64,000 nt of DNA, from NCBI GenBank assembly GCA_919902985.1, contig CAKKSC010000021.1, positions 29,676-93,675 of the forward strand. Direction: 5' to 3'. The notes beneath the pieces were generated by a model, which did no database searches, was not told where the DNA came from, and worked only from the letters and a program-made list of their open reading frames with translations. Position 1 is the stretch's first letter. Each line of letters begins with the position of its first letter. Of the stretch, positions 5,015-23,987 are shown piece after piece. The translations under genes were made by a program, and so were the position numbers. The DNA comes from Desulfuromonadales bacterium. GTDB taxonomy: Bacteria > Desulfobacterota > JAENJC01.

Positions 5015-5270
5015 TATACAACCTAATAACTGCAAACCACAGAGGCCACAGAGATAAATTTTGGGTATAACTTTTCAATACCATTTTCTTCTCTGTGTTC
5101 TCGTGAGGTTGATTTAAAAAAATATCGGGTTTTTAAAAGTCCCCCTTTGAGTGCACAGAGAAAAGATTGAAAACAAGTTTATTCTTTTGTTATTAAAGGG
5201 TTTTCTCCGCGTGTCTGTGGTTAGATTGCAGGATTTAGGTACAATAAAACTCTTATATGTGGCGCATAGA

Positions 5271-6125
5271 ATGTTTGAAAACAAAAATATGGTAGAGATG
5301 CATGATGAGGAGTTTCTTCTTATAAGAGACTTTATCTACGACCACTGCGGACTCTTCTTTGAGACCGACAGCAAATACCTTCTGGAAAAGAGGCTTTCCG
5401 GGAGGATTGCCCTGCACCAGATCTCCAGCTACAGGGACTACTATCTATACCTGAAATACGACAGGCTCAGAGATGAAGAACTCAGTACTGTTTTAGACCT
5501 CCTCACAACTAACGAGACCTATTTTTTCAGGGAAGGGTATCAACTGAAGGCCTTTACTGAAGAAATAGTCCCGGAGATAACCGGCAGGAAGAGAGAGAAG
5601 GTGCTGAGGATATGGAGCGCCGGCTGTTCTACCGGGGAGGAGCCATATACAATAGCCATGATGCTTGTTGATCTTATGAAAAACGGGGTCCTTAACGGAT
5701 GGCATATAGAGATACTTGGAAGTGATATCTCCCAGAGGGTCTTGGGAGTAGCCAGGAAGGGGGCATACAGTCCCTCTTCATTCAGGGAGACGGATAAAAG
5801 GTATATGTCATATTTTGAAGAGGATGATGGGAAAAAGAGGATAAAGGATGAAGTCAGAAAGCTGGTAACTTTTACTCACCTGAACCTTCTGGATTCAAGT
5901 AAGATAAGTCTGCTGAAGACAATGGACGTAATATTTTGCCGAAATGTCATAATATATTTCGACATCAAGGCAAAAAAGAGAGTTATGCAAGAGTTTTATG
6001 ATAGACTTGATAAAGGAGGTTATCTGCTGCTTGGACATTCGGAGTCATTGATGAACATATCTGCACTATTTGACCTGAAGCACCTGAAAAATGACATGGT
6101 GTACCAAAAGCCCTTTGCTGTGTAA
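5271..6125 (+). CDS. cheR: Chemotaxis protein methyltransferase CheR
   Basis: Shows the SAM-dependent methyltransferase motif LRIWSAGCSTGEEPYTIAMML and the CheR C-terminal region. The ORF is open from 5151, but the first plausible ATG (MFENKN...) is at 5271. Confidence 0.85.
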   Translation: MFENKNMVEMHDEEFLLIRDFIYDHCGLFFETDSKYLLEKRLSGRIALHQISSYRDYYLYLKYDRLRDEELSTVLDLLTTNETYFFREGYQLKAFTEEIVPEITGRKREKVLRIWSAGCSTGEEPYTIAMMLVDLMKNGVLNGWHIEILGSDISQRVLGVARKGAYSPSSFRETDKRYMSYFEEDDGKKRIKDEVRKLVTFTHLNLLDSSKISLLKTMDVIFCRNVIIYFDIKAKKRVMQEFYDRLDKGGYLLLGHSESLMNISALFDLKHLKNDMVYQKPFAV

Positions 6126-7419: not shown

Positions 7420-9252
7420 ATGATTCAGGAGATAACCCTTCACGGGAGGGTTGAAAACAGTATAGAGTTCTATGCCACTATCGCCGGACGCGGACTGGTG
7501 TACAGCTATTTTTATGAACCCTCAGAAGGCTCTTCAGACAGGTTCTTTTTCGGAGGGAGAGAGTTTGTTATCGATAAGGAGGGGATAAGGCACAAAGGTA
7601 ACGGCGGCAGCGTTTGCGAATATATGTTCGGCGTTGAGCAGCCGTTGAAAGACATGGTAAGAAGGGACGTATTGAACCGGCTTGCCATGTATGGGGCCTT
7701 GTTTGATGACGAAACAGGAAAGGTGATATTCACAGACAAGACAGACGGGTATTGCATGTATGACAGGGTTTTTCTGGAGGGGAATGCCGTAAGCAACTAC
7801 TACTTCTTCATAGATATTGACCTGCGCGGAGATATTGGCTCCCAGCAGGAACAGATACTTAAACTTGTCGGAAAGACCCTCAAATACTCCCCTGCAGTAG
7901 GGAAGGGGGACGATGTTTCTCTTATGAGGGAATTGACCACAGACTTAGACGGCTATAACCCTGTCATATTTCTCTTCCGGCTTGTGAACCGCTACCACAA
8001 GAAGTACTACGACCTTTTCAGGGACCTTTATGCTGAGAAGAAGGAGATATCTCCGAAAGGTGAGAAGGTGCTGTCTTCTCTTGTGGAAGAGTTCAATATA
8101 GACCAGTATCAGCAGGAGAGGATAAAGATTGATGTCATATACAACCATCCGGAGAACAGGCGCGTTCTGGATGAGTACAAGGATATCCTCATCTCTCTGG
8201 AAAAAATGGAGGAGATAGACCATTCCTATATAACCTCCCTAAACAGGCTAAGATCGCTGGCCATGAAGAACAATATCCCTCTCTCCCTGTTTGATCTCCT
8301 GGATGAGCTTCTGCTTAAAGACAAGAAACTTCTCCAGGGTGAGGAGCCTGACTATATCAAGCACAGCAGGGCATTGCTGGACGGGCTGTTCATAATAGAA
8401 GGCGGGTTTGGAGCAATCCTGAGCAAGCAGGACCTTGTAAAACTCCTCTTTGACAAGAAGCGTTCCCTGGAAAACAGGGACCTGGCGTTTGACAGTCTTT
8501 TGCTGGATATAGGAAAGGCCTGTGACGACAGCTTTCAGAAGGGCGACTCGAGGGCCATGGAGAGGTTCAGTGAGCTCATCACATATTTCGATAGATTTGA
8601 TACTACATCTTCCATGATCAGCATGATGGCCTTTATGGATGAGGATATGCCGATAGAAAAACTGAGGAGTATACTTGGGAACAAAAGGGCCATTGAGGAA
8701 ATACAGGAAGGGCTCTTCGAGTCCCTTTTTATCTCGGACCTACTTAAAAATAAATATATTTCCTCTTCAGGCAGGAGGAAGGTCTTAATTCTGAGCAAGG
8801 GGCTTGATGATGTCGAGAAGGGGTATAAATCCCTGAATGAAATTACCAGCACTATCGCTCATATTAATGAAGAGGACAGGATATACCATCTTCTATACAG
8901 CACCGCAAGGGAGAAGCTGAAAAAGATACCAGGCGCTATGGAGGGGAAAGGAGATTCTGACAAGCTTCTAAAGGAGGTACTGAAAAATCTTCTTCATGAA
9001 GGCCCTATAAAAAGAATACCAAGGGAGATAATGAAGAGGGTCTTCATAGCGCTTAAAATGGAGATATTCTATGTCAATGATATATTGCCGAAGATAATGG
9101 ATACATTTGACATGAAGCCGAGGGGGGATTTCCTTCATAACAGCGGGTTTGACAGGTTCTACGTAGAGGATATAGAGAGGCAGTATATGGAAAAGTACGA
9201 TGTCCCCCCGGAGATAGCAAAGAGGTTCCGGGAGCTGGTTGAACAGGGGTAG
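7420..9252 (+). CDS. Uncharacterized 610-aa protein embedded in the chemotaxis operon
   Basis: Long ORF co-directional with cheB and the second cheR. I could not recognise any catalytic motif. It is rich in Lys/Glu helical repeats. Confidence 0.5.
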   Translation: MIQEITLHGRVENSIEFYATIAGRGLVYSYFYEPSEGSSDRFFFGGREFVIDKEGIRHKGNGGSVCEYMFGVEQPLKDMVRRDVLNRLAMYGALFDDETGKVIFTDKTDGYCMYDRVFLEGNAVSNYYFFIDIDLRGDIGSQQEQILKLVGKTLKYSPAVGKGDDVSLMRELTTDLDGYNPVIFLFRLVNRYHKKYYDLFRDLYAEKKEISPKGEKVLSSLVEEFNIDQYQQERIKIDVIYNHPENRRVLDEYKDILISLEKMEEIDHSYITSLNRLRSLAMKNNIPLSLFDLLDELLLKDKKLLQGEEPDYIKHSRALLDGLFIIEGGFGAILSKQDLVKLLFDKKRSLENRDLAFDSLLLDIGKACDDSFQKGDSRAMERFSELITYFDRFDTTSSMISMMAFMDEDMPIEKLRSILGNKRAIEEIQEGLFESLFISDLLKNKYISSSGRRKVLILSKGLDDVEKGYKSLNEITSTIAHINEEDRIYHLLYSTAREKLKKIPGAMEGKGDSDKLLKEVLKNLLHEGPIKRIPREIMKRVFIALKMEIFYVNDILPKIMDTFDMKPRGDFLHNSGFDRFYVEDIERQYMEKYDVPPEIAKRFRELVEQG

Positions 9253-9334: not shown

Positions 9335-9382
9335 ACTCACTCACTCACTCACTCACTCACTCACTCACTCACTCACTCACTC
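9335..9382. repeat. Perfect tetranucleotide microsatellite (ACTC)12
   Basis: actcactcactc... runs uninterrupted for 48 nt in the intergenic region, ~80 nt after the 610-aa gene and ~240 nt before the second cheR. Confidence 0.95.
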
Positions 9383-9576
9383 ATAAAATCCACTCCTTAT
9401 TCATAATGAATCGAAAAGTAATTATATTCACGAATGGCACGAAGAAAAGAAATATGTTTTTCTATATCTCCCCTGACCTTACCCTCCGGGCATAAACTCT
9501 TTTCCAAACAGGGGAATATCGAAGATCATAGTAGCGGTACTCTTTACGGTTGCTAATTTGTTGGTGCAGGTATAAT

Positions 9577-9605
9577 GTAGGGGCGGGTTTGAAACCAGCC
9601 CCTAC
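9577..9605. repeat. GTAGGGGCGGG-loop-CCAGCCCCTAC hairpin (REP-like) in the 5' leader of the second cheR; a sister copy is at 59956..59984
   Basis: A near-perfect palindrome sits immediately after a TATAAT hexamer (9571..9576) and before the AAGAGG RBS. The same arm sequence recurs between panC and panD. Confidence 0.5.
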
Positions 9606-9624
9606 GTGCGCCGCAAGAGGATGT

Positions 9625-10533
9625 ATGGATGATAAACTACTACACCTGTTCAGGCGGCTCATATCGAGGAAGACCGGGATAGTGGTAAGGACGGAAGACT
9701 TAACGGCATTGGAGAAATGCATCTCCGCCCGGATTGCACTGTTGAGACTTTTAGAGCCGGTAGACTATCTCCGCCTCCTATCCGGCGATACATATGTGAG
9801 CAGGTGCGAGTGGAAGGAGCTTATAATCCCCCTGACAATCGGGGAGTCATTCTTCTTCCCGGACAAGGGGCAGTTTGAGGTTCTTAAGGAGAGGATACTC
9901 CCTGAGTTGATAGAGAAGAGAAAGGATGTCCGCTCTCTGCGGATATGGAGCGCAGGATGTTCCCGCGGGGAGGAGCCGTATTCGTTGGCCATCCTGCTGG
10001 ATGGGCTTTTACCAGACAGGAGAGACTGGAACATATCCATCGTAGGAACCGATATAAACGAGGATACCTTGGGGAAGGCGAGACTCGGAGCATATACACA
10101 ATGGTCTTTTCGTATGGTGGAGCAGGAGGTGCAGGGGCGTTATTTCAAGAGACGCAGGGATGAATGGGAGATTGATGAAAGGATAAGGAATATGGTGACC
10201 TTCAGTTATGGGAACTTGATAGAAGAGGCTTTTCCTAATCATGAGATATGCAATATGGACCTGATCATGTGCAGGAATGTATTTATCTACTTCAAGGAGC
10301 TGGTATTAACACAGGCGCAACTCTATGACCTCAATACAAAGCTTGAGGAGAAGGTGAAGGAGAGGACTGCGGCGCTGAAGGCGGAGATCGAGCAGCGTAA
10401 GGCCACTGAGGAGTCCCTGAAGAAGAGCGACGAGGAGCTCCGCAAAAGCCTCGATGAGGTGGAAAGGCTCAACAGGCTGATGGTGAATGGTGAAGAGGGA
10501 GTTCAGGATAGAAGAGCTGAGGAAGGAGAATGA
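9625..10533 (+). CDS. CheR-family methyltransferase with C-terminal signalling-helix/coiled-coil extension; the tail is frameshifted by a 7-bp tandem duplication
   Basis: RBS AAGAGG 5 nt before the ATG at 9625. The CheR motif is LRIWSAGCSRGEEPYSLAILL, followed by an ERT signalling-helix motif (KVKERTAALKAE). The conserved terminal motif continues in the +1 frame at 10487..10576. Confidence 0.8.
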   Translation: MDDKLLHLFRRLISRKTGIVVRTEDLTALEKCISARIALLRLLEPVDYLRLLSGDTYVSRCEWKELIIPLTIGESFFFPDKGQFEVLKERILPELIEKRKDVRSLRIWSAGCSRGEEPYSLAILLDGLLPDRRDWNISIVGTDINEDTLGKARLGAYTQWSFRMVEQEVQGRYFKRRRDEWEIDERIRNMVTFSYGNLIEEAFPNHEICNMDLIMCRNVFIYFKELVLTQAQLYDLNTKLEEKVKERTAALKAEIEQRKATEESLKKSDEELRKSLDEVERLNRLMVNGEEGVQDRRAEEGE

Positions 10534-10600
10534 GAAGCTGAAGGAGAGGATTGAGGAGATGGAGGCGAAGGGATGAAGAATCACCAACAGGAGTTGGTTC

Positions 10601-11020
10601 CTACCGGCTTTCGATTATTATAGAGCTTATTTCATTTAGAACATCTTTTATAGATGGCATGGTTGCATCTATCACTTTGTTCTGAATGTGTTTATGGTGT
10701 GGGAATGAGCTGACTTCAGGATGATGTGAGGCATTGTCATAGCGGAAAATCATCTCTTTGTTCGAATTCATGTAGTGCAGGCGGTATTTAGTGATGACCA
10801 GGGCATTGCGAAAATTAGTGGCAAATATGGATATCTCAAGGGAAGAAGAATCGATAAATATGAGGTTCCCTTTTAGGTATACGGTGTTTCGAGGTCCGAA
10901 GTGTTTTTGGATGTTTGAGGATAAGACGATAGAGGAGGATGCAATGGTTTTATCTATTTCTTCTGCGAGCTTTTCAATCACCGTATTGCCGATTGAATGG
11001 CGGAACGGGTTTCCTGCCAT
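10601..11020 (-). CDS. Conserved hypothetical protein with an R-Y-D-N-A-x-H-H-P-E ... F-P-H-H-K-H motif (resembles DUF6516-type toxin-antitoxin-associated proteins)
   Basis: 139-aa ORF that overlaps the upstream 98-aa ORF by 43 nt. Family assignment is from memory of the motif only. Confidence 0.4.
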   Translation of the reverse strand: MAGNPFRHSIGNTVIEKLAEEIDKTIASSSIVLSSNIQKHFGPRNTVYLKGNLIFIDSSSLEISIFATNFRNALVITKYRLHYMNSNKEMIFRYDNASHHPEVSSFPHHKHIQNKVIDATMPSIKDVLNEISSIIIESR

Positions 11021-11274
11021 TCAGAAAGGAGTTTTGCGAAGGCATACCAGTCAAAGAAATCTGCTTCATCACCCATTTGGCCTGATTCAAACTTCTTCAG
11101 GAATGAAGGGGTGGTGAGATGGTATTTTTGCTCAAACTCTTTTACAGCCTTTTTGTAAAAGGCCATAGCGCTTGAATAGAGGCTGTATTCTCTCTTCAGG
11201 GAGGTTTTTATTTCATTTGTAAGCTGCATAATGAATTTATAGAGCAAATGGTCCGGCAAGTCAAGCAATAACAA
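10978..11274 (-). CDS. Small hypothetical protein, upstream partner of the 139-aa protein (possible two-gene addiction-like cassette)
   Basis: 98-aa ORF co-oriented with and overlapping the downstream gene. No recognisable motif. Confidence 0.3.
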   Translation of the reverse strand: MLLLDLPDHLLYKFIMQLTNEIKTSLKREYSLYSSAMAFYKKAVKEFEQKYHLTTPSFLKKFESGQMGDEADFFDWYAFAKLLSEWQETRSAIQSAIR

Positions 11275-11285
11275 ACGGAAGTTTT

Positions 11286-13019
11286 ATGCCATTCAAGATA
11301 CGGACAAAACTCATCTTTGCATTCCTTGCAATAATAATCCCGTACATGGTTATTTCAGGAACAATCTTCCTTTATAACATGAATATTATCTACAAGGGGG
11401 TCAACAAGGTTGAGGCCGTCGCCGGAGAGATGAAGAAGAGCTATAACCTTCAGCTTGCCCTGGATATGGCATTGATGCCTATCAACGACTACATAATCAC
11501 AGGCGAGAAGAGGTATATGGAAGAGTTTCGGAAGACATCTCTGGAAGTAGAGAGGTGGCTGAAGGAGTTGGAAGGGGAACTGGCCGGTCTGGAGGGGTTG
11601 TTCCCTGCCGAGGTAAAGGAGGAGAAGGAGATACTGAATGACATCAGGGCCTCATGGCAGAAGGTAAAGGAGATGTCGCTTGAGATATTTGCGATCCCAA
11701 ACCCGGTCGGCAATAGTGACGCCGCAAGGCTTATGGAGGATATGGACTATAAATTGGCTTACCCTGCCATAGAAAGGCTCAGGAGATGGCAGGAGATTGA
11801 TAAGGAGGAATACAGGGAGGCCCATGAAGAGTCTGAGAGGGCGTTGAGGCTGGTAGTGATAATCATGATTGCGGGCGGAGTCATATTGGCCTTCATCGGC
11901 GGCTTCTTTGCTATTTTCTATTCCAGGATGTTCGTCAGGCCGATAGAGACCATTCATGAAAGGGTAGACGCCATAGCCGGAGGGGATTTCAAGACGAGGC
12001 TAGATATAAAGACAGATGATGAGATTGAGCAGCTTGCAAACGCCGTGAACGAGATGGCCGCCCAGCTTGACTCTTTTACCTCAAACCTTCAGGGTATGAT
12101 TGAGGAGAGGACGGCGGAGCTGAGGGAGAGTGAGGAGCATTACCGGGGTGTTTTTGAAAAAACGCCAAATGCGATTGTGATTTTTGACGCAGAGACATTG
12201 CACTTTGAAAAGGTCAACCGCGGTGCAGTAGACCTTTATGGGTACACAGAAGAAGAGTTCCGCTCCCTGACCCCACCGGACGTCTCGGCGGAGGTGGAAA
12301 AGACCAGGAAAGCCGTACAAGACGGCCTTGCCGAGAAGTTTGCCCATGTCCCTGTACGGTATCATAAGAAGAAGGACGGGACGGTCTTCCCTATTGAAAT
12401 ATTCATGGGGACCTTTTTATCCAATGGACGCCAGAAGGGTTTTGCGGTCATAGTTGACCTTACAGCGATAAAAAAGAACGAGGAAATGTTAAAGGCGAGC
12501 GAGGAGCGGTTCCGCACCATTACAAATACCGCTGGCGATGCCATTATCTGTCTGGAGGCTCCCGGTAATATTAATTTATGGAATAAAAAGGCAGAGGAGA
12601 TGTTCGGATACACGGCAGATGAGGTGATGGGAAGGGATATGCATGACCTCATTGTCCCTGAAAAATACCGTGAAAAGGCCCGCGAGGGTTTGAAGGGATT
12701 TTTCCAGACAGGCGCAGGGCCTGTTGTCGGCAAGACCGTCGAGCTTACAGCCCTTCGTAAGGATGGGACGGAGTTCCCTATCGCCCTTTCCATCTCGGCA
12801 ATGAAGATACAGGAAGAGTGGCAGACCACAGGCATCATCAGGGACATCACCGAAAGGAAGAAGGCGGAGGATAAGATAAAGGAGCAGCTGGATCTCCTTA
12901 AACGGTTTGAGAAGGTGGCGATAGACAGGGAGTTCAGGATAAAGGAACTCCGGGATGAGAACGATTTGCTGAAAAAGAGGATTGGGGAGATGGAGAAAAG
13001 ATTCAAAACTAATGCATAA
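11286..13019 (+). CDS. Membrane-anchored sensor: TM helix - helical sensor region - HAMP - signalling helix - PAS - PAS - conserved C-terminal coiled-coil tag. No kinase, GGDEF or MCP output domain
   Basis: N-terminal hydrophobic helix and a second TM (VVIIMIAGGVILAFIGGFFAIFY). The HAMP region ends in DEIEQLANAVNEMA, followed by the ERT motif (IEERTAELRESEE). Two PAS folds follow. It ends in DREFRIKELRDENDLLKKRIGEME. Confidence 0.75.
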   Translation: MPFKIRTKLIFAFLAIIIPYMVISGTIFLYNMNIIYKGVNKVEAVAGEMKKSYNLQLALDMALMPINDYIITGEKRYMEEFRKTSLEVERWLKELEGELAGLEGLFPAEVKEEKEILNDIRASWQKVKEMSLEIFAIPNPVGNSDAARLMEDMDYKLAYPAIERLRRWQEIDKEEYREAHEESERALRLVVIIMIAGGVILAFIGGFFAIFYSRMFVRPIETIHERVDAIAGGDFKTRLDIKTDDEIEQLANAVNEMAAQLDSFTSNLQGMIEERTAELRESEEHYRGVFEKTPNAIVIFDAETLHFEKVNRGAVDLYGYTEEEFRSLTPPDVSAEVEKTRKAVQDGLAEKFAHVPVRYHKKKDGTVFPIEIFMGTFLSNGRQKGFAVIVDLTAIKKNEEMLKASEERFRTITNTAGDAIICLEAPGNINLWNKKAEEMFGYTADEVMGRDMHDLIVPEKYREKAREGLKGFFQTGAGPVVGKTVELTALRKDGTEFPIALSISAMKIQEEWQTTGIIRDITERKKAEDKIKEQLDLLKRFEKVAIDREFRIKELRDENDLLKKRIGEMEKRFKTNA

Positions 13020-13257
13020 GTAAGGCAAAAAGGAATGCAAGTTTTTCTCTTGAGATGCCTGCTTTTTTGAGGATGTTATGGAGGGTCCCTTTCTTAAGGG
13101 ACTTATTGGAGTGAACAGGGATGGGAATGGTTAAAGCGCCTTCTTCAGTCTGTTTCTGGTATATGCGGTGGCTGCCTGTCTGTCTCACAAAGACAAAGCC
13201 TTCTTTTTCAAGAGCCCTGCACAGTTCTTGTCCGCTGATTTGCGGCAACTTACCCAT
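13009..13257 (-). CDS. hicA: HicA-family mRNA interferase toxin
   Basis: 82 aa with the HicA hallmarks (ELCRALEKEGFVFVRQTGSHRIYQK...GTLHNILKKAGI). It overlaps the upstream hicB by 8 nt. Confidence 0.8.
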   Translation of the reverse strand: MGKLPQISGQELCRALEKEGFVFVRQTGSHRIYQKQTEEGALTIPIPVHSNKSLKKGTLHNILKKAGISREKLAFLFALLMH

Positions 13258-13477
13258 TTATGACAAGTTCCAGTTCCTTAACCTGATGCCCCTTGGCGAA
13301 ATGCGGTATATTTTCAAGGCCGACAACATCTACGTATCCATTTGCGGCGTCTTTGAGCATATAAACAGCCTCTTCAACGGTTTCGCCTTCTGTGGTGATG
13401 TCAAGTTCCGGGCAATATACAACGTAACCGCCTTCTTCAGCGGGGGTGAGCTCCGCAGTGATTTTTATCGTTGTCAT
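13250..13477 (-). CDS. hicB: HicB-family antitoxin (UPF0150-like)
   Basis: 75 aa (TIKITAELTPAEEGGYVVYCPELDITTEGETVEEAVYMLKDA), typical of the HicB N-domain. Lies immediately upstream of hicA. Confidence 0.75.
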   Translation of the reverse strand: MTTIKITAELTPAEEGGYVVYCPELDITTEGETVEEAVYMLKDAANGYVDVVGLENIPHFAKGHQVKELELVING

Positions 13478-13553
13478 AAAGACCTCCTGTTTCAGAGGAT
13501 AGCATTTTGCCGGATAAAGTCAAGTATTGAACTGGAACCGGGTGAGGGAAAGT

Positions 13554-15659
13554 ATGTCTAATGAGGTTCTTATATCAGAATTAGAGGCCGAAAACAAAAA
13601 GCTCAGGGCCGAACTTGAGAAGGCCCATGAGAAGGAGCAGGATGCTGAGAAAAGCAGTACGGCTACGCTCTTTATGCTGGAAGATATTGGAAGGTCACGT
13701 GACGAGATAGAGAGGAGTAAGAAGGAGTGGGAGGCGACATTTGACAGCATTTCTGATCCTCTTTTCATCCATGATAAAGAGATGAGACTTATAAGAGTGA
13801 ACAGGGCATACCTATTGGTTTCCGGCGAGGAAAAGTTCAAGAAGATAATCGGAAGGCCATATTACGAGGTCTTTCCGAAGATAGACGGGCCGTTCAAGAC
13901 ATGTCTGAAGGCATTTGAATTGCAGGAGGAGGAGCAGCAGGAGGTTTTACTGCCCTCTATAAACAAGGCCTTTAAGGTCAGGTTCTACCCCATAAAGGAT
14001 GAAAACGGCAGTCTCCTTTATTCCATCCATATCCTTGAAGACATAACAGAGGCGAAGAGGGCGGAGGAGAGGATAAAAGAGGAGATGGAGGTCACCACCC
14101 ATCTCCTTATGATCTCCGAGGCCACCGCCCATACAACAGATATAGACAAGCTCATGCAGCAGGTCGTCCACTGCGGCCACGAGATAATGAGGTGCGGTAT
14201 ATGCCTGTCATATCTCTATGATGAGGACTCAAGGGTATTCCAGCCATGTCAGGAGTTTGGTCTTTCTCATGAATTGATCCCGGTTTTCAGGACAGAGCCG
14301 ATAGATGAAGAGATGGAGTTTGTCAGAAAGGCGGTAAAGGGGAAGGAGCCGGCGGTAGATCAGGTAGGTGCGATTCATGAATCGCACCTACAATGGTTGC
14401 CCGACTTCAAAACCCTCGCTGTCATTCCACTTATTGGCAAGACCGGCCCCCTCGGCCTCATTGTCGGTATTTACAAAAGGCCAACCGAGACTACGGAAAG
14501 GGATAAAAAGATAATGGTGGGGATATCACAGCAGGTCTCTGTTGCTCTCGAGCAGGCAAGGCTTTACAAGGAGTCTATAGACAAAACTCTGGAGCTTTCC
14601 CACAAGATAGAGACGATAAGGGTGATGAACGAGATAGACAGGTCTATCCTCTCGACCCTGAAGGCGGATGAACTGCTTGAGACTGTGACGAGACTTATTT
14701 CAAAGGTGATCCCCTGTGACCGGGCGACAGTCTCACTTGTTGACAGGGAGAGGGGCGGGTTCATATACAAGGCCGGTTTTGGGACAGCAGTGGTCCAAAA
14801 GGGTGCCTTTGTCTCCTTTGCCGATATGTCTGCCAGGGGAATTGTTGAGACAGGCAGAACGGAGTGCGTTAACAACCTCTCGGAGATGACGCCGCTTCTA
14901 CCCATAGAGAAGAGATTTCTTGATGAAGGGTTTCTATCCCACATAAGGGTCCCCATAACGATAAAGGGGAATGTGGCCGGGATATTGACGGTTGGCGCAA
15001 AGAGGGTTGCGGCCTTTACAAAGGAAAATCTCTCGACCCTCGAATATCTCTGCTCCCAGATAGGCGTTGCCCTGTCCAATGCAGGGCTTATATCAGACCT
15101 TGAGGAGCTTTTTGTCGGTGTGGTAAAGTCACTGTCCTCCGCCATAGACGCCAAGTCACCGTGGACAGCCGGTCATTCGGAGAGGGTCACGAAATATGCC
15201 CTTGATATTGCGAAGCAGATGGGCTTGCCTGAGAAGGAGCTTAAAGACCTTGAGCTTGCCGGACTCCTGCACGACATCGGGAAGATAGGGACTTACGAGT
15301 CCATACTCGATAAACCTGCAAAGCTTAACGATGAGGAGCAGGCCGTGATGAGGCAGCATCCTGTAATGGGCGCTGAGATACTTGCTCACATTAGACAATT
15401 GAAAGATATTATCCCTGGAGTGAAATACCACCATGAATTCTATGACGGGACGGGTTACCCTGAAGGGCTCAAGGGAGAGGCTATACCGTTACACGCACGA
15501 ATCCTCACCGTTGCCGATACCGTAGACGCGATGGGTGCGGACAGGCCTTACAGGGAGGGGATGACAATGGATGTTATCATTGCAGAGCTGAAGAGATGCT
15601 CCGGGACGCAGTTTGATCCTAAGGTGGCGGAGGCGTTTCTGGAAGTGATTGGAACATAG
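13554..15659 (+). CDS. Coiled-coil - PAS - GAF - GAF - HD-GYP c-di-GMP phosphodiesterase-type protein
   Basis: HD motif in LAGLLHDIGKIG and GYP motif in HHEFYDGTGYPEGL. The ORF is open from 13527, but GAGGGA lies 4 nt before the ATG at 13554. Confidence 0.8.
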   Translation: MSNEVLISELEAENKKLRAELEKAHEKEQDAEKSSTATLFMLEDIGRSRDEIERSKKEWEATFDSISDPLFIHDKEMRLIRVNRAYLLVSGEEKFKKIIGRPYYEVFPKIDGPFKTCLKAFELQEEEQQEVLLPSINKAFKVRFYPIKDENGSLLYSIHILEDITEAKRAEERIKEEMEVTTHLLMISEATAHTTDIDKLMQQVVHCGHEIMRCGICLSYLYDEDSRVFQPCQEFGLSHELIPVFRTEPIDEEMEFVRKAVKGKEPAVDQVGAIHESHLQWLPDFKTLAVIPLIGKTGPLGLIVGIYKRPTETTERDKKIMVGISQQVSVALEQARLYKESIDKTLELSHKIETIRVMNEIDRSILSTLKADELLETVTRLISKVIPCDRATVSLVDRERGGFIYKAGFGTAVVQKGAFVSFADMSARGIVETGRTECVNNLSEMTPLLPIEKRFLDEGFLSHIRVPITIKGNVAGILTVGAKRVAAFTKENLSTLEYLCSQIGVALSNAGLISDLEELFVGVVKSLSSAIDAKSPWTAGHSERVTKYALDIAKQMGLPEKELKDLELAGLLHDIGKIGTYESILDKPAKLNDEEQAVMRQHPVMGAEILAHIRQLKDIIPGVKYHHEFYDGTGYPEGLKGEAIPLHARILTVADTVDAMGADRPYREGMTMDVIIAELKRCSGTQFDPKVAEAFLEVIGT
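15134..15640. repeat. ~500-bp block almost identical to 18418..18924 (HD-GYP domain-encoding 3' ends of two paralogues)
   Basis: By-eye alignment shows only a handful of substitutions (for example atgacaatgg/atggcgatgg, gcagagctg/gcggaactg, and the last ~15 nt). Upstream of the block the paralogues are much more diverged at nucleotide level. Confidence 0.85.
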
Positions 15660-15725: not shown

Positions 15726-16280
15726 TTGGCTAATATCAGTGTATTAATTGTTGAAGATGAGGAGTTTTTTGCAAGCGAAGTCCAAGATATATTGAATAAG
15801 CTAGGATACGATGTCTTAGGTATCGCTTCGACTGGAGAGGATGCCGTTAAGATGACGGAAGAGACCCACCCTGATCTGGTCCTCATGGATATTGTCCTTA
15901 AAGGGGAAATGGATGGTGTTACAGCTGCTGAACAGATCCATGAACGTCTCGATATACCTGTCATATATCTTACCGGTCTTACAGGTGACCAGATAACGGA
16001 GAGGGCAAAAACAACAGAACCTTTCGGATATATCCTGAAACCTTTTCAGGAAAGGGAATTGCATGTTGCGATAGAGATAGCCCTTTATAGGCATAAGATG
16101 GAGAAGAAGTTTAGGGAGATTTCAGAAGAGCGTGAAAAATATACCGCCGATCTGGAAAGGATGAATAAGCTGATGATAGGACGGGAATTAAAGATGGAGG
16201 AGCTTAAGAAGAAAAATGAGAGGTTGAAGGAGTTGGTTGAGGAACTGGAAAGCAAAATCAGGGCAGGAGAAAGACCGTGA
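15726..16280 (+). CDS. Single-domain response regulator (REC) with conserved C-terminal coiled-coil tag
   Basis: TTG start with an AAGGAGG RBS. REC motifs VLIVEDEE...LVLMDIVL...IYLTG...K are present. The C-terminus is IGRELKMEELKKKNERLKELVEELES. Confidence 0.75.
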   Translation: MANISVLIVEDEEFFASEVQDILNKLGYDVLGIASTGEDAVKMTEETHPDLVLMDIVLKGEMDGVTAAEQIHERLDIPVIYLTGLTGDQITERAKTTEPFGYILKPFQERELHVAIEIALYRHKMEKKFREISEEREKYTADLERMNKLMIGRELKMEELKKKNERLKELVEELESKIRAGERP

Positions 16281-16302
16281 AGAAGGTCCAACGGTAAGGC
16301 TT

Positions 16303-18954
16303 ATGGGAAACAACCCCGAAATCGAAAGACTCGAAGTTGAGGTAAGCAGGCTCAAATTGGACCTTGAAAAGGCCCAAGAACGTGAGGAGCTTGCCGAGGT
16401 GTCCCGAAGGATTATCCTCAACATGATGGAGGAGGTGAATGAGTCTGCCGAAAACATAGAGAAGGGAAAGCGGGAGTGGGAGGCGACCTTTGATGCCATC
16501 TCAGAGCCACTCTTCATCCATGATAAAGAGATGAGGATAATCAGGGCGAACAAGGCATATCTTAGTGCATCCGGCGAGGGCGGGTTCGAGCATATAATCG
16601 GCAGACCGTATTACGAGGTCTTCCCCAAGAGGGATGGTCCTTTCAGGATGTGCTCGAAGTCATTGGAATTGCGGGAGGAGGTGGAGGAGGTTTCTCTTCC
16701 AGCTACAGGCAAGGTTTTCAGGGTAAGGTTTTATCCAGTCCAAGGTCCGGCCAAAGAATCCCTTTACTCCATTCATGTCATGGAGGACATAACCGATTCA
16801 AAGAGGGAAGAGGAGAAGCGTAAGATACTGTATGAGTTTAGCAATAGAATGATCGCCAGTATGGACCTTGATTACAGGTTGAACCACATCTGTTCAACGA
16901 TAGTTGATTTCGGTTATAGAATGGCCTGGATAGGCACCTTGAGAGATGATACCAAAGAGGTGGTCCCCAGGTCCCAGGCTGGATTTGAGGAGGGGTACAT
17001 ATCCACCGTCAGGGTAAGATATGACGACTCACCTTTAGGGCAGGGGCCAACGGGGATAGCGATTAAGAGTAAGAAGCCTGAATTTCAGAACCACATTGCA
17101 ACAGATCCGAGGTATGGGCCTTGGAGAGAGGCTGCCTTGAAAAGAGGGTATGGTTCTTCGGCTGCCTTCCCTATCATGCACGAAAACAAGGTCATTGCCG
17201 TACTTAATATATACAACTCGAATGAGACCTTCCCGGAGAAGGAGATAAATTTCCTTCAGACCTTCGCCAATCAGACTGGAACGGCCCTGAGAAATGCCCA
17301 GCTGTTTGAGGAGGTTAAGGGATCGGCTGAAAGGATAAGGCAGGAGATGGAGGTGACGACCCATCTCCTGATGATCGCGGACGCCGTTGCCGGGACGACG
17401 GATATAGACAGGCTCATGGAGCAGGTTGTTCACTGCGGGCACAAGATCACAGGCTGTGATATCTGTCTTTCATACCTATGGGACAAGGACTTAAATGCCT
17501 TTCAACCATGCCAGGAGTTTGGCCTGCCTAAAGAATTACTTCCCATCTTCAGGACGGAACCGTTGGGCATTAAGGCAGAGTTTGTCAAACAAGCTCTAAC
17601 GAAGAAGGCCCCGGTGATAGAAAAGGTAGGGGCGGTCTGCGAACCCACCCTACAGTGGATTGCCGACATTAACACCATTGCCGTAATTCCCCTGACAGGC
17701 AAGAAGGATTATCTCGGCCTGATAGTAGGCATCTATCAGGCAGGGAAGGGTTTGAAATCCGCCCTTACGGAATTCACAGAAAGGGACATAAATCTTATGC
17801 AGGGGATCTCCCACCAGGTCTCAGTTGCCCTTGAGGAGGCAAGCCTTTACAAGGAATCCACCGACAGGGCCATGGAGCTTTCCCATAAGATTGAGACCAT
17901 AAAGGTGATGCATGAGATAGACAGGAGCATCCTCTCGACCCTGGCATCTACTGAGATACTTGAGACCGTTACCAGGATGATTGGTAGGTTGATCCCCTGC
18001 GACAGGGCAACCATTGCCCTTGTGGATAAGGAAAGAGAGGGGTTTATCTATGAGGCAGGTTTTGGGTTGATATTTATCCAGAAGGGGGCGCTGGTACTTT
18101 TTGCTGAGACATCGGCAACAGAGGTGGTAACGACAGGTAGGCCTCAATACATCCAGGATCTTGAGATAGTCAATGAACCGCTGCCTTTTGAGCAGAGGCT
18201 CCTCAAAGATGGTTTCCTTTCACATATCAGGCTCCCCCTCGCAGTAAAGGGTGAGGTAGTGGCGGTCTTAAACGTTGGTGCAAAGAGGTCCGCCGCATTT
18301 ACAAAGGAAAACCTGTCTACTCTTGAGTATCTTGCATCCCAGATAGGCGTTGCCCTCTCAAATGCAGGTCTTGTATCAGACCTTGAGGGGCTTTTCATAG
18401 GAGTGGTCAAGTCCCTCTCCTCCGCCATAGACGCCAAGTCACCGTGGACAGCCGGTCATTCGGAGAGGGTCACGAAATATGCCCTTGATATTGCGAAGCA
18501 GATGGGCTTGCCTGAGAAGGAGCTTAAAGACCTTGAGCTTGCCGGACTCCTGCACGACATCGGGAAGATAGGGACTTACGAGTCCATACTCGATAAACCT
18601 GCAAAGCTTAACGATGAGGAGCAGGCCGTGATGAGGCAGCATCCTGTAATGGGCGCTGAGATACTTGCTCACATTAGACAATTGAAAGATATTATCCCTG
18701 GAGTGAAATACCACCATGAATTCTATGACGGGACGGGTTACCCTGAAGGGCTCAAGGGAGAGGCTATACCGTTACACGCACGAATCCTCACCGTTGCCGA
18801 TACCGTAGACGCGATGGGTGCGGACAGGCCTTACAGGGAGGGGATGGCGATGGATGTTATCATTGCGGAACTGAAGAGATGCTCCGGGACGCAGTTTGAT
18901 CCTAAGGTGGCGGAGGCGTTTTTAAAGGTTTTACCTCAAAAAGATATTGTCTAA
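16303..18954 (+). CDS. Coiled-coil - PAS - GAF - GAF - GAF - HD-GYP protein (paralogue of 13554..15659)
   Basis: Same architecture as the paralogue plus an extra GAF domain. The HD-GYP domain is near-identical to the paralogue's. The ORF is open from 16237 (overlapping the preceding gene); by homology to the paralogue's N-terminus, M at 16303 is the likely start. Confidence 0.8.
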   Translation: MGNNPEIERLEVEVSRLKLDLEKAQEREELAEVSRRIILNMMEEVNESAENIEKGKREWEATFDAISEPLFIHDKEMRIIRANKAYLSASGEGGFEHIIGRPYYEVFPKRDGPFRMCSKSLELREEVEEVSLPATGKVFRVRFYPVQGPAKESLYSIHVMEDITDSKREEEKRKILYEFSNRMIASMDLDYRLNHICSTIVDFGYRMAWIGTLRDDTKEVVPRSQAGFEEGYISTVRVRYDDSPLGQGPTGIAIKSKKPEFQNHIATDPRYGPWREAALKRGYGSSAAFPIMHENKVIAVLNIYNSNETFPEKEINFLQTFANQTGTALRNAQLFEEVKGSAERIRQEMEVTTHLLMIADAVAGTTDIDRLMEQVVHCGHKITGCDICLSYLWDKDLNAFQPCQEFGLPKELLPIFRTEPLGIKAEFVKQALTKKAPVIEKVGAVCEPTLQWIADINTIAVIPLTGKKDYLGLIVGIYQAGKGLKSALTEFTERDINLMQGISHQVSVALEEASLYKESTDRAMELSHKIETIKVMHEIDRSILSTLASTEILETVTRMIGRLIPCDRATIALVDKEREGFIYEAGFGLIFIQKGALVLFAETSATEVVTTGRPQYIQDLEIVNEPLPFEQRLLKDGFLSHIRLPLAVKGEVVAVLNVGAKRSAAFTKENLSTLEYLASQIGVALSNAGLVSDLEGLFIGVVKSLSSAIDAKSPWTAGHSERVTKYALDIAKQMGLPEKELKDLELAGLLHDIGKIGTYESILDKPAKLNDEEQAVMRQHPVMGAEILAHIRQLKDIIPGVKYHHEFYDGTGYPEGLKGEAIPLHARILTVADTVDAMGADRPYREGMAMDVIIAELKRCSGTQFDPKVAEAFLKVLPQKDIV
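18418..18924. repeat. Second copy of the near-identical HD-GYP-encoding block (see 15134..15640)
   Basis: See the paired feature. Even antisense ORFs translate identically (15156..15434 and 18439..18717). Confidence 0.85.
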
Positions 18955-21947: not shown

Positions 21948-22191
21948 AAATATACCTTCGTCGGTTTTTTATGAAACTTGACAGTCATATTAATAACAGC
22001 TTTCCGTCCGCCGATTCTAAGTAGACTTTAGAGAATAAAGCATACTCTGTCAAGAAAAATGAACTGAAAAATGAGCTGAATTGTACTCCTGTTTCAGGGT
22101 AAATTTATCAACTTACCCACTTTGCAAAATTCCGCACCCGTGCTAAGCTTTCTCTGTAAAACTGGAGAAACAGTTATGGCACCTACCTTGC

Positions 22192-22230
<39 letters not shown>

Positions 22231-22334
22231 TTTGCCCTAGCGGCAAGTCTGTTGCGGATTTTGGAAATTCAAAAACCTCGGTTTCACCGGAGCAGCGGTG
22301 GCCGGGGTTTTTGTTTTTTAGGGCGGAGGGGTAC

Positions 22335-23987
22335 ATGAGCGTCAGGACGAAATTGATCTTAATGTTTGCGGGCATTGCTATGCTTGTCGGTATTGGCGCC
22401 TCCTTCTACGTCATATATGACCATTGGATAGAAGCCGATGAGCACGCTGCACGCCATGCTGAAGGCTCCGCCAGAGCCTTTGCCTTTGCCATGGTCTCCG
22501 AGGATCTATCAGCAAACTCCACACCCATATATAAATCTCCAGTGCAGCTACAGAATTTCATTACCGATCTGCACGCGAAACTCAAACAAGATATTGAGTT
22601 GGTGGATACCCAAAAGAAGATACTCGGAGACGCAATCCCCGAAGATGTGGGCACAGTACTTGACCATGATAGTAATGACGAAGTGGGGCAGACGATAAGG
22701 GACGGCATCACCAGGACGCTGATTGAAACAAGCGCGGATTATCCCCAGGGGATTCGTCAGATCGCAGTCCAGGTCAAGACGAAACAGGGGGAAGTAGTTG
22801 GCGCCCTCCTCCTTGAGTACACAAATGTTTATGACGAACACATTGCCGATGCAAAAAGAGAGATGCTCTATTTTTACATGGAAGCACTCATCTCGGTATT
22901 CATGGTCAGCCTGATCGGGTTTTGGTTCGCCAGAAGCATCACCAATCCGATTCTGAAGTTGGCCAAGGCGAGCGGCGAGATGGCAGCAGGCAATCTTGAT
23001 GTAATAGTGGAGGTTGCATCGAAGGACGAGATTGGCGACCTCGCCACGGCCTTTAACAATATGGTGGAATCGAGGAAGTTGGCAGAGAAAAAGGCAAGGG
23101 AGAGCGAAAACCGCTTCAGGAAACTCTTTGAAAACTCCAACGACGCCATCTTCATCAATGATGCAGAAACGAGCCGTATTCTCGATGTCAACGAGCGGGT
23201 GCTGAAAAACCTGGGATATACCAGGGAAGAATTACTGGCGATGAGGGTCACCGATATCGAGGCTACCCTGCCGGATAAATTCTCATGGGAAAACCACATG
23301 AGGGAACTCGACGCAGCGGGTTTCATGCTCCTCGAAGGCCGACACAGGAGAAAGGATGGCGTCGTATTCCCCGTTGAGATCAGTGTAAGGAACATTCAGG
23401 CGGAAGAGAAAAAGTTCAATCTTGCCATCGTCCGCGACATCACCGAGCGGAAAAAGGCGGAGGAAAAGCTATTGGAGAGCAGGAAGACGATAGAATCTGT
23501 CCTGAACGCTACCACTGACGCGCTGTTTCTGATAGATGCCGCAGGGAATATCCTTGCATTGAATGAAACAACCGCCGGGAGGCTTGCTAAAAAACCAGGG
23601 GAGCTTATCGGTTCCTGCATATATGACCATCTGCCTCCCGCTATTGCGCAGGCAAGGAAGGCGTATGTTGATGAGGCGATGCGCACCGGCAAAACCGTAA
23701 GGTTTGAAGATGAACACAATGGAGAGTGGCTGGACAACAGTATATTCCCTATCTCTGATGAACAGGGAAAGCTTGTAAGGGCTGTCATTTATGGCCACTA
23801 CATCACAGACCGCAAGAACGCGGAGAAGGAGCTTAAGGAAAAGTCCGCAAATCTTGAGAGGTTCAACAGGCATATGGTCGGCAGGGAGATGCGTATGCTT
23901 GAGATGAAAAAAGAGGTGAACGACCTCCTTGAGAGGCTGGGAGAGCCGAAGAGGTATGAATGGACGAAAGAGGGGGAATCTTCATGA
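22335..23987 (+). CDS. Membrane sensor: TM - periplasmic-type sensor region - TM - HAMP - PAS - PAS - conserved C-terminal coiled-coil tag. No enzymatic output domain
   Basis: GGAGGG RBS 4-5 nt before the ATG at 22335 (MSVRTKLILMFAGIAML...). The second TM is followed by HAMP (ITNPILKLAKASGEMAAGNLD...EIGDLATAFNNM). Two PAS folds follow. It ends in GREMRMLEMKKEVNDLLERLGE. The ORF is open from 22122. Confidence 0.7.
   Translation: MSVRTKLILMFAGIAMLVGIGASFYVIYDHWIEADEHAARHAEGSARAFAFAMVSEDLSANSTPIYKSPVQLQNFITDLHAKLKQDIELVDTQKKILGDAIPEDVGTVLDHDSNDEVGQTIRDGITRTLIETSADYPQGIRQIAVQVKTKQGEVVGALLLEYTNVYDEHIADAKREMLYFYMEALISVFMVSLIGFWFARSITNPILKLAKASGEMAAGNLDVIVEVASKDEIGDLATAFNNMVESRKLAEKKARESENRFRKLFENSNDAIFINDAETSRILDVNERVLKNLGYTREELLAMRVTDIEATLPDKFSWENHMRELDAAGFMLLEGRHRRKDGVVFPVEISVRNIQAEEKKFNLAIVRDITERKKAEEKLLESRKTIESVLNATTDALFLIDAAGNILALNETTAGRLAKKPGELIGSCIYDHLPPAIAQARKAYVDEAMRTGKTVRFEDEHNGEWLDNSIFPISDEQGKLVRAVIYGHYITDRKNAEKELKEKSANLERFNRHMVGREMRMLEMKKEVNDLLERLGEPKRYEWTKEGESS

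What the first reader, a model, noticed from the sequence alone, without database searches (positions are those of the whole stretch)
10480..10576. Exact 7-bp tandem duplication (ATGGTGA ATGGTGA) frameshifts the conserved C-terminal tag of the second CheR
Seen in sequence: 10480..10486 and 10487..10493 are both atggtga. The annotated frame then reads ...LMVNGEEGVQDRRAEEGE and stops. The +1 frame from 10487 reads MVKREFRIEELRKENEKLKERIEEMEAKG and stops at 10574. This is an almost exact match to the tag of the REC protein 29339..29881 (ERLNKLLLKREFRIKELRDENDKLKERIGE). Removing one 7-bp copy restores ...ERLNRLMVKREFRIEEL... in frame. This is either a recent inactivating duplication of the tag (the CheR domain itself stays intact), a slippage-prone switch, or an assembly error.
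Basis: seen in the sequence. Interest (0 to 1): 0.55.

Follow-up and report, generated by a model that had tools for sequence, protein, structure and literature searches.

The report
Frameshifted tail of a dead CheR remnant
A real 7-base tandem duplication knocks a conserved C-terminal signalling tag out of frame, but the gene it hits was already a broken leftover of a chemotaxis methyltransferase gene, so this is ordinary gene decay and not a switch or an assembly error.

Summary
ATGGTGA occurs twice in tandem at 10480-10493. Frame 0 then stops at 10533, and the +1 frame (10487-10576) encodes the rest of a C-terminal tag. A six-frame scan with a family model finds the tag split across the two frames exactly at the repeat.

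It is not an assembly error. All nine independent public assemblies examined, from at least nine samples or runs, carry the same two copies. No single-copy allele was found in the protein collection.

The claim that the CheR domain stays intact is wrong:
- DNA homology to intact CheR-TPR orthologues (90% and 85% identical) stops abruptly at 10295.
- The last ~45-55 residues of the methyltransferase fold and the whole TPR domain are missing. An unrelated coiled-coil-plus-tag tail replaces them.
- The catalytic arginine (R98 of Salmonella CheR) is a proline.
- The CheW, MCP, CheA and CheB genes that follow this gene in relatives are gone.

The duplication is therefore one more lesion in a chimeric pseudogene left by the collapse of a second chemosensory operon. 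No signal for recoding or phase variation was found.

The by-product is more interesting than the finding. The tag belongs to a large family (over 9,000 clusters) with no Pfam, NCBIfam or PDB match, found at the C-terminus of sensor-only proteins.

The parts
9625..10295 (+). 5' part of a CheR-TPR gene (codons 1-223, ending ...CRNVFIYF). This is the only part homologous to CheR.
   Evidence: It is 90.5% identical in DNA to L014 and 84.7% to L010, and both alignments end at 10295. Pfam CheR matches positions 3-152 of 195. PDB CheR alignments end at this point.
9859..9861 (+). Codon CCG (Pro79) in place of the catalytic Arg (R98 of S. typhimurium CheR).
   Evidence: L014 has CGG and L010 has AGG. 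Arg is present in 118 of 119 homologues and Pro in none. The residue aligns to the R of FFRE in 1BC5. R98 and Y235 are described as catalytic, and R98A cells fail to swarm (PMC3447774).
10296..10479 (+). Foreign tail: an S-helix-like LEEKVKERTAAL segment plus coiled coil, and the first half of the tag (…ERLNRLMV), in frame 0.
   Evidence: It has no similarity to CheR-TPR orthologues after 10295. It is 44% identical over 50 aa to the REC-to-GAF linker of the L010 HD-GYP regulator. Tag model positions 3-27 match here.
10480..10493 (+). Exact 7-bp tandem duplication ATGGTGA ATGGTGA, which adds 7 nt (a +1 frameshift).
   Evidence: It is identical in loci L001-L009.
10487..10576 (+). Second half of the tag, readable only in the +1 frame (29-codon ORF MVKREFRIEELRKENEKLKERIEEMEAKG).
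   Evidence: Tag model positions 23-49 match at 28.8 bits. Pipelines call it as a separate 29-aa protein, P0283.
10531..10533 (+). Premature TGA stop of the frameshifted frame 0.
   Evidence: ORF 9550..10533. The deposited 302-aa protein P0001 / MEK6725752.1 ends here.
10583..10611 (.). Terminator-like hairpin between the tag stop and the convergent TumE-like toxin gene.
   Evidence: This is a consensus match only.
10296..14054 (.). A 3.76-kb segment that replaces about 7.4 kb of the ancestral operon. It holds the tail, a TumE-type toxin-antitoxin pair, a HAMP-PAS-PAS-tag gene, a HicA-type pair and the N-terminal PAS part of an HD-GYP gene.
   Evidence: L010 1400-2118 matches window 9577-10295, and L010 9553-11138 matches window 14055-15640. 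CheW, MCP, CheA and CheB of the second operon have no counterpart after CheR2.

Best explanation
The gene at 9625..10576 is a chimeric pseudogene, and the 7-bp duplication is one of at least three lesions in it. The ancestor was a CheR-TPR methyltransferase gene that headed a second chemosensory operon of the alternative-cellular-function type: CheR-TPR, CheW, MCP, CheA-REC, CheB and a REC-GAF-HD-GYP regulator. In this lineage a rearrangement removed everything from CheR codon 224 to the regulator's REC region. That event joined the 5' two-thirds of cheR, in frame, to the 3' end of another signalling gene consisting of an S-helix, a coiled coil and the C-terminal tag. The catalytic Arg also mutated to Pro. 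A 7-bp tandem duplication then added 7 nt inside the tag; it most likely arose by slipped-strand mispairing during replication (inferred). Translation therefore leaves the tag after ...RLMV, reads 17 unrelated codons and stops at 10533. Shown: the duplication, the breakpoint, the missing fold elements, the R-to-P change, the lost operon genes, and fixation of the duplication in every sampled assembly. Inferred: the order of events, the slippage mechanism, and that the product has no function.
For: - Split tag: the tag-family HMM matches frame 0 at model positions 3-27 and the +1 frame at positions 23-49. The repaired tag scores 53.9 bits against 27.1 as it stands and aligns without gaps to the five paralogues.
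- Fixation: the two copies are identical in nine assemblies from ENA and Logan, covering samples ERZ2470813, ERZ1286166, ERZ1292617, ERR3858110/127/128/129, ERR3654041 and SRR32696696.
- Breakpoint: homology to orthologues ends at 10295. The closest homologues, P0002 (82%) and P0003 (77%), are 475-480 aa CheR-TPR proteins.
- Synteny: it is conserved upstream, where the L014 upstream gene is 92% identical to window 7420-9252. It resumes downstream in the HD-GYP gene at 78%.
- Lost operon: the operon genes are present in relatives and absent here.
- Truncated fold: Pfam positions 3-152 of 195, NCBIfam CheR positions 29-238 of 287, and PDB alignments that stop 43-54 residues before the chain ends.
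- Catalytic residue: R79P at the catalytic Arg.
- Relaxed constraint (weak): 16 window-specific amino-acid changes against 8, and a branch non-synonymous:synonymous ratio of 13:7 against 7:10.
- Independent parallel: locus L023 holds another CheR-TPR remnant (residues 1-70, then a TPR fragment) fused to a tag that belongs to the gene upstream of an HD-GYP gene.
- Not a natural architecture: none of 119 CheR-TPR homologues carries a tag, and CheR is not among the 25 commonest Pfam partners of 97 tag proteins.
Against: The tag in the +1 frame shows no decay; it scores as well as the intact paralogues. Either the duplication is recent or something still preserves the tail. The excess of non-synonymous change on the window branch is not significant (Fisher p = 0.19, binomial p = 0.15), and pairwise dN/dS is still 0.32. 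The donor of the tail was not found, so the fusion event is reconstructed, not observed. Assemblies give consensus sequence only, so a minority single-copy allele cannot be excluded. NCBI annotates the 302-aa product as an ordinary CheR-family protein.
Confidence: 0.8

Rival explanations
1. Assembly or sequencing artefact: the true genome has one ATGGTGA copy.
For: The window comes from a metagenome-assembled genome. Single-base differences from another assembly exist elsewhere, at 5201 and 5283.
Against: Nine independent assemblies from at least nine samples or runs all carry two copies. Their contig naming points to several different pipelines, and one of them has many single-base indels. 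A 7-bp non-homopolymer duplication is not a typical error of either read type (general knowledge).
Confidence: 0.02
2. Reversible switch or recoding site: slippage between one and two copies, or a programmed +1 ribosomal frameshift, decides whether the tag is attached.
For: Gain or loss of one unit toggles the frame. The tag in the +1 frame is undegraded. The genome has truly variable repeats nearby: the (ACTC) tract has 12, 7 or 6 copies in different loci.
Against: There are only two units of a 7-mer, and no length variation in nine assemblies or in the protein collection. The +1 frame has a TGA at 10484-10486, so a shift would have to occur within AAT GGT GAA GAG. That stretch has no slippery codon, no in-frame stop and no Shine-Dalgarno-like stimulator at the right place (read). 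The protein it would regulate lacks a catalytic residue and part of its fold.
Confidence: 0.04
3. The present arrangement is functional. A tag-less CheR-like scaffold of 302 aa acts as an adaptor or decoy, possibly together with a free 29-aa tag peptide translated from the ATG created by the second repeat copy.
For: The ORF is kept identical in all samples. dN/dS of 0.32 is below 1. The N-terminal domain and Y235-equivalent are retained. The second copy supplies an in-frame ATG. Gene callers report the 29-aa ORF.
Against: The samples are nearly clonal, so identity says little. The fold is truncated inside the Rossmann-type domain. No good ribosome-binding site lies 5-10 nt before ATG 10487. 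The cognate receptor, CheW, CheA and CheB genes are gone. No homologue with this architecture exists.
Confidence: 0.08
4. The duplicated 7-mer is a footprint: a target-site duplication left when a transposable element inserted and was later lost. It did not arise by replication slippage.
For: The surrounding segment is a mosaic with two toxin-antitoxin modules and repeat elements.
Against: No element remnant or inverted repeat lies at the site. Clean loss that leaves only the target duplication is uncommon in bacteria (general knowledge). The consequence for the gene would be the same.
Confidence: 0.04

Closest known systems
CheR-TPR methyltransferases of alternative-cellular-function chemosensory clusters (WspC / FrzF type; PMC3447774)
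   Same: Residues 1-223 are 77-82% identical to 475-480 aa CheR-TPR proteins that head CheR-TPR/CheW/MCP/CheA/CheB/REC-output operons. Upstream synteny is conserved.
   Different: It lacks the last ~45-55 residues of the methyltransferase fold, the linker and all TPRs. The catalytic Arg is Pro. The operon partners are deleted.
Frameshifted pseudogenes created by short tandem duplications (slipped-strand mispairing)
   Same: An exact head-to-tail duplication of a non-multiple of three, a premature stop 17 codons later, and homology that continues in another frame.
   Different: Nothing essential. The hit gene was already a fusion remnant.
Phase-variable contingency loci with simple-sequence repeats
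   Same: A change in repeat number would toggle the reading frame.
   Different: Contingency loci have long tracts of short units and show length polymorphism. Here there are two 7-mers and no variation. The nearby (ACTC) tract fits that class better.
Programmed +1 ribosomal frameshifting (prfB type)
   Same: The downstream domain is in the +1 frame.
   Different: There is no slippery codon, no in-frame stop at the shift site, no correctly placed Shine-Dalgarno-like stimulator and no conservation (no orthologues of the chimera).
Unnamed C-terminal tag family (consensus ...LERFNxLMVGRELRMIELKKEVNxLLxxLGExxxY, with a variant REFRIKELRDENxxLKKRIxE)
   Same: The repaired tail matches the family model at 53.9 bits, lies at the very C-terminus and follows a coiled coil, as in other members.
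   Different: Here it is out of frame and attached to a CheR fragment. Family members are attached to PAS, REC, GAF, HAMP or Cache sensor domains. The family has no Pfam, NCBIfam or PDB counterpart.

Membership tests
CheR protein-glutamate O-methyltransferase | Complete SAM-binding alpha/beta domain (Pfam PF01739, 195 positions) | tested here: not met
   Only positions 3-152 of 195 match. NCBIfam CheR matches 29-238 of 287. Alignments to 5FTW, 5XLY and 1AF7 end 43-54 residues before the chain ends.
CheR protein-glutamate O-methyltransferase | Catalytic Arg (R98 of S. typhimurium CheR, FFRE motif) | tested here: not met
   Pro79 aligns to that Arg. Arg is present in 118 of 119 homologues. Its role comes from PMC3447774.
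CheR protein-glutamate O-methyltransferase | Catalytic Tyr (Y235, IYF motif) | tested here: met
   CRNVFIYF is retained and aligns to CRNVMIYF of 1BC5. Mapping Y235 onto this motif uses the chain offset inferred from that alignment and my recollection of the sequence numbering.
CheR protein-glutamate O-methyltransferase | N-terminal all-alpha domain (PF03705) | tested here: inconclusive
   There is no Pfam CheR_N hit at E <= 0.01. However, PDB and NCBIfam alignments extend to residues 7-10, and most close homologues also lack the Pfam hit.
CheR-TPR fusion proteins (ACF-type clusters) | C-terminal TPR domain | tested here: not met
   No TPR hit. Homology to CheR-TPR stops at 10295.
CheR-TPR fusion proteins (ACF-type clusters) | Location in a cluster with CheW, MCP, CheA, CheB and a multidomain response regulator | tested here: not met
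   The cluster is present in L010-L016. In the window only the HD-GYP part of the regulator survives downstream.
C-terminal tag family (unnamed) | Full-length match to the tag profile in one reading frame, ending near the stop codon | tested here: not met
   The match is split: model positions 3-27 in frame 0 and 23-49 in frame +1. It is met only after removing one 7-mer.
C-terminal tag family (unnamed) | Attachment to a sensor or receiver domain (PAS, REC, GAF, HAMP) | tested here: not met
   Partners in 97 members: PAS 83, REC 19, GAF 17, HAMP 5. CheR is not among the 25 commonest. None of 119 CheR-TPR homologues carries a tag.
Phase-variable simple-sequence contingency locus | Repeat-number polymorphism among closely related genomes | tested here: not met
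   There are two copies in all nine assemblies, and no single-copy product in the collection. Read-level frequencies are not testable with these tools.
Programmed ribosomal frameshift site | Slippery sequence with a stimulatory element, conserved in orthologues | tested here: not met
   No such motif lies in 10486-10497. No orthologue of the chimera exists to test conservation.
Pseudogene | Disrupted relative to intact homologues by truncation, frameshift and loss of an essential residue | tested here: met
Pseudogene | Relaxed selective constraint (dN/dS near 1) | tested here: inconclusive
   The branch non-synonymous:synonymous ratio is 13:7 against 7:10, p = 0.19. Pairwise dN/dS is 0.32 against 0.15.

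The most novel reading that the evidence does not exclude
The two-copy 7-mer is a reversible on/off site, through replication slippage or rare ribosomal frameshifting. It would control whether a catalytically dead CheR-like scaffold carries the C-terminal tag. Because the second copy creates an ATG, it might alternatively release a free 29-residue tag peptide that competes in the interaction network of a large, undescribed family of tagged sensor proteins.
Probability: 0.04. Interest if true: 0.6.

Novelty: new member of a known kind. Interest (0 to 1): 0.2.

Why it matters
For the finding itself, very little. It is a documented example of how a chemosensory operon collapses, and it shows that a protein deposited as a 'CheR family methyltransferase' (MEK6725752.1) is a triple-lesion remnant that should be flagged as a pseudogene. 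It is also a caution: an apparently clean 'tag lost by frameshift' can hide a deeper truncation that only comparison with orthologues reveals.

The useful by-product is the tag. It is a roughly 45-residue C-terminal module present six times in this window and in more than 9,000 protein clusters. It is almost always the only thing that follows PAS, REC or GAF sensor domains, and it has no family assignment or solved structure. If it is an output or partner-binding element, it would explain how thousands of 'output-less' sensor proteins signal.

Tried and rejected
- **Donor of the tail.** I searched the 91-aa repaired tail against 5.8 billion proteins and got no hit at E <= 0.001. JGI metagenome contigs gave one generic PAS-linker match, L017. 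GTDB genomes gave only distant CheR homologues at 35-39% and not the window's own species. Inside the window the other tags are only 75-82% identical in DNA, so none is a recent source.
- **Tail derived from the REC-to-GAF linker of the ancestral regulator.** The match is 44% over 50 aa plus 25 of 29 nt. I kept this as a lead only, because the LNxxLExxVxERTxxL motif is generic.
- **Known identity for the tag.** Pfam at E <= 10 gave only sub-threshold generic coiled-coil matches. NCBIfam gave nothing on the tag. PDB profile search gave a best E of 0.03 to Vipp1/PspA coiled coil. Literature string searches gave nothing relevant.
- **A natural 'tagged CheR' architecture.** P0281 (TPR fragment plus tag) looked like one. 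It turned out to be a second deletion remnant.
- **Selection analysis.** The direction fits relaxation, but it is not significant.
- **Structure prediction.** I did not run it. It would not test foldability of the truncated domain, and a monomer model of a coiled-coil tag would say little.

Full report
**1.
Window 10480-10493 is ATGGTGA twice in tandem. The match runs one base further, so the repeat register is ambiguous by 1 nt. Frame 0 (ORF 9550..10533; the real start is ATG 9625, as in orthologues) reads ...ERLNRLMVNGEEGVQDRRAEEGE and stops. The +1 ORF 10487..10576 reads MVKREFRIEELRKENEKLKERIEEMEAKG.

A 7-bp exact tandem repeat is not remarkable in itself. The window has about ten such loci, several inside intact genes, against about 4.9 register hits in simulated sequence. 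The frame logic is what matters:
- I built a model of the tag from independent proteins and scanned all six frames of the window.
- It finds five complete tags, each at the C-terminus of an ORF (11286..13019, 15726..16280, 22122..23987, 24006..25265, 29339..29881).
- It finds one split tag: model positions 3-27 in frame 0 and positions 23-49 in the +1 ORF.
- Removing one 7-mer gives a gap-free alignment to the other five tags, 55% identical to the REC protein 29339..29881.
- It also raises the family score from 27.1 to 53.9 bits, within the range of the intact tags, 44.5-87.6 bits.

**2. It is not an assembly error.**
The deposited 302-aa product (P0001, NCBI MEK6725752.1, 'MAG: Deltaproteobacteria bacterium') is recorded on 14 contigs. 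I retrieved nine loci from ENA and Logan assemblies of at least nine samples or runs. All have the identical two-copy sequence. The loci are 99.4-100% identical to the window. One of them (L002) carries many single-base indels, as expected of error-prone (possibly long) reads, and still has the duplication.

The 90%-identity cluster holds only duplication-bearing members, and the repaired 314-aa sequence is absent from the 15-billion-protein collection. Two copies are therefore the fixed state in every sampled population. Minority alleles cannot be seen in consensus assemblies.

**3. The gene is not an intact CheR.**
- Pfam matches only positions 3-152 of the 195-position CheR model, with no TPR. 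NCBIfam CheR matches positions 29-238 of 287.
- Alignments to solved CheR structures stop at 213/256 (5FTW), 227/281 (5XLY) and 229/274 (1AF7).
- The closest homologues (82% and 77% identical over the shared part) are 475-480 aa CheR-TPR proteins.
- At DNA level the window is 90.5% (L014) and 84.7% (L010) identical to their genes up to base 10295 exactly. After that, similarity drops to noise. The protein switches from ...CRNVFIYF to KELVLTQAQLYDLNTKLEEKVKERTAAL..., which is an S-helix-like segment, a coiled coil and the tag.
- Among 58 columns that are at least 90% conserved in 119 homologues, the window protein departs at two. One is a tolerated Tyr-to-Phe change (Phe occurs in 8% of homologues). 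The other is Pro79 where 118 of 119 have Arg and none has Pro. It is a single-base change: CCG here, CGG or AGG in the orthologues.
- That Arg aligns to the R of FFRE in S. typhimurium CheR. PMC3447774 describes R98 and Y235 as the catalytic residues, reports that R98A cells fail to swarm, and states that both residues are conserved in CheR-TPRs with a C-terminal TPR. The Tyr (IYF) is kept, and the break lies immediately after it.

**4. The context shows a collapsed operon.**
In relatives, CheR-TPR is the first gene of a cluster: CheR-TPR, CheW, MCP, CheA-REC, CheB and REC-GAF-HD-GYP. This is the type PMC3447774 assigns to pathways with alternative cellular functions.
- Upstream synteny is conserved. 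The gene before L014's cheR is 92% identical to window 7420..9252.
- Homology resumes downstream. L010 9553-11138 matches window 14055-15640 at 78%, inside the HD-GYP gene.
- In between, about 7.4 kb of the relatives is replaced by 3.76 kb. The lost part is the 3' third of cheR-TPR, CheW, MCP, CheA, CheB and the REC part of the regulator. The replacement holds the tail, a TumE-type toxin-antitoxin pair, a HAMP-PAS-PAS-tag gene, a HicA-type pair and a PAS N-terminus.
- No remnant of the four core genes follows CheR2.
- The window lineage has 16 private amino-acid changes in the CheR part, against 8 in its sister. Its non-synonymous:synonymous ratio is 13:7 against 7:10. The direction fits relaxed constraint, but it is not significant (p = 0.19).

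**5. An independent parallel supports decay.**
A search with the tag profile found P0281, an 86-aa 'TPR protein' ending in a tag. Its locus (L023, labelled Nitrospinota, with the same Hain_ sample prefix) has three parts:
- an ORF encoding CheR residues 1-70;
- in another frame, a TPR fragment fused to a tag;
- an overlapping start of a PAS-GAF-HD-GYP gene, exactly as the REC-tag gene 15726..16280 overlaps 16237..18954 in the window.

A CheR-TPR gene has therefore been reduced at least twice by deletion onto the tag-bearing 3' end of a downstream gene. None of 119 CheR-TPR homologues has a tag, and CheR is not among the 25 commonest Pfam partners of 97 tag proteins. 'Tagged CheR' is therefore an accident of deletion, not an architecture.

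The donor of the window's tail was not found. Its first 50 residues resemble the REC-to-GAF linker of L010's regulator at 44%. Short HAMP-S-helix-tag proteins also exist (P0305, P0309, P0211). These are leads, not proof.

**6. Mechanism and rivals.**
The best explanation (confidence 0.8) is that a slipped-strand tandem duplication added 7 nt inside the tag of a gene that was already, or soon became, non-functional. The result is a 302-aa product with a truncated, Arg-less methyltransferase domain, a coiled coil and 17 nonsense residues.

The order of the three lesions is unknown. The undegraded tag in the +1 frame suggests the duplication is the most recent (inference).

A switch or recoding site is unlikely:
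- There are two units only and no polymorphism.
- The +1 frame is closed by TGA at 10484-10486, so a shift would have to happen within AAT GGT GAA GAG.
- That stretch lacks any slippery codon, stop or correctly placed stimulator.

A functional tag-less scaffold, or a free 29-aa tag peptide, cannot be excluded. It has no positive support, and no good ribosome-binding site precedes ATG 10487.

**7. Comparison with what is known, and novelty.**
The feature is a new instance of a well-known kind: a frameshifted, chimeric pseudogene. It is derived from the CheR-TPR family but fails the defining tests for CheR (complete fold, catalytic Arg) and for CheR-TPR (TPR domain, operon context).

The tag is the part that lies outside current catalogues:
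- A profile of the six window tags finds 9,140 cluster representatives at E <= 0.001, and 90 at E <= 1e-10.
- The match lies at or near the C-terminal end in nearly all of the best 150.
- Partner domains in 97 members are PAS in 83, REC in 19 and GAF in 17. HisKA and HisKA_3 occur in one member each, and no other catalytic output domain is among the 25 commonest families.
- There is no Pfam, NCBIfam or PDB match, and no literature hit on the motif strings.

**8. Verdict.**
- Observation: confirmed.
- Interpretation: partly supported. The lesion is real and disconnects the tag, but the CheR domain is not intact, it is not an artefact, and there is no evidence for a switch.
- Interest for the finding itself: low, 0.2.
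- The tag family and the variable (ACTC) repeat upstream are better subjects for follow-up.

Noticed in passing
window 12927-13019, 16153-16280, 23850-23987, 25120-25265, 29789-29881 (plus the split copy at 10430-10576): Six copies of a roughly 45-residue C-terminal tag sit on proteins that otherwise contain only sensor or receiver domains. There are two flavours: REFRIKELRDENxxLKxRIxE and GREMRMxELKKEVNxLLERLGExxRYE. A profile finds 9,140 cluster representatives, almost all with the match at or near the C-terminal end. Partners are PAS, REC and GAF, and output domains are almost absent (HisKA and HisKA_3 in one member each). There is no Pfam, NCBIfam or PDB match. It is possibly an undescribed output or partner-binding module.
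   Followed up: partly
window 9335-9383; L014 2391-2418; L015 1052-1079; L016 2112-2135: A perfect (ACTC)12 microsatellite lies in the intergenic region upstream of the CheR2 remnant. The same tract upstream of the intact CheR-TPR orthologue has 7, 7 and 6 copies in three contigs that encode the identical P0002 protein, so it varies in length. Several Logan contigs begin inside it. It is a better candidate for slippage-based regulation than the 7-mer.
   Followed up: partly
window 22192-22230: A second perfect tetranucleotide repeat, (ACAG)9.8, lies at the 5' end of the ORF 22122..23987 (HAMP-PAS-PAS-tag), where it is translated as ...RQTDRQTDRQTD.... It probably lies upstream of the real start.
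   Followed up: no
L023 1458-1953 (ENA ERZ1292639 Hain_H51 contig; also NCBI GCA_038068675.1 JBBTLO010000379.1): This is a second, independent CheR-TPR gene remnant. CheR residues 1-70 sit in one frame, and a TPR fragment fused to a tag sits in another. The tag ORF overlaps the start of a PAS-GAF-HD-GYP gene.
   Followed up: yes
window 9577-9605: A 14-nt-arm palindrome, GTAGGGGCGGGTTT / AAACCAGCCCCTAC, lies just upstream of the CheR2 start. It is conserved in the orthologous loci L010 and L014 and is translated by gene callers as 'VGAGLKPAPT'. It looks like a REP-type element or a conserved 5' hairpin.
   Followed up: no
window 7286-7375 and 35250-35332; L010 2300-2390: A repeat element of about 90 nt (80-82% identical) occurs twice in the window. 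It also occurs inside the linker-coding region of the L010 CheR-TPR gene, where it is translated in frame.
   Followed up: no
window 13527-15659 and 16237-18954 (3' ends 15,0xx-15,659 vs 18274-18921): Two paralogous PAS-GAF-HD-GYP genes share a 3' segment that is 93% identical over about 650 nt. The only substitutions that separate the window from assemblies L001 and L002 cluster at 15328-15506 inside this segment. That suggests gene conversion between the paralogues or chimeric assembly.
   Followed up: no
window 10601-11274 and about 13007-13475: Two toxin-antitoxin modules, both on the minus strand, bracket the HAMP-PAS-PAS-tag gene inside the 3.76-kb replacement segment. One is a TumE-type toxin plus a 98-aa partner, and the other is a HicA-type toxin plus a 75-aa partner. 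They may mark how the segment arrived.
   Followed up: no
window 5201 and 5283: The window has two extra single bases relative to assembly L001 just upstream of the first cheR (5151..6125). These extend the apparent ORF upstream, so they may be polishing errors in one of the assemblies.
   Followed up: no
L002 1-3245 (ENA ERZ1286166 contig_4132): Upstream of window position 6868, this assembly does not align with the window, and its cheB and CHP04442 genes are fragmented by indels. It is either a structural variant or a noisy assembly.
   Followed up: no
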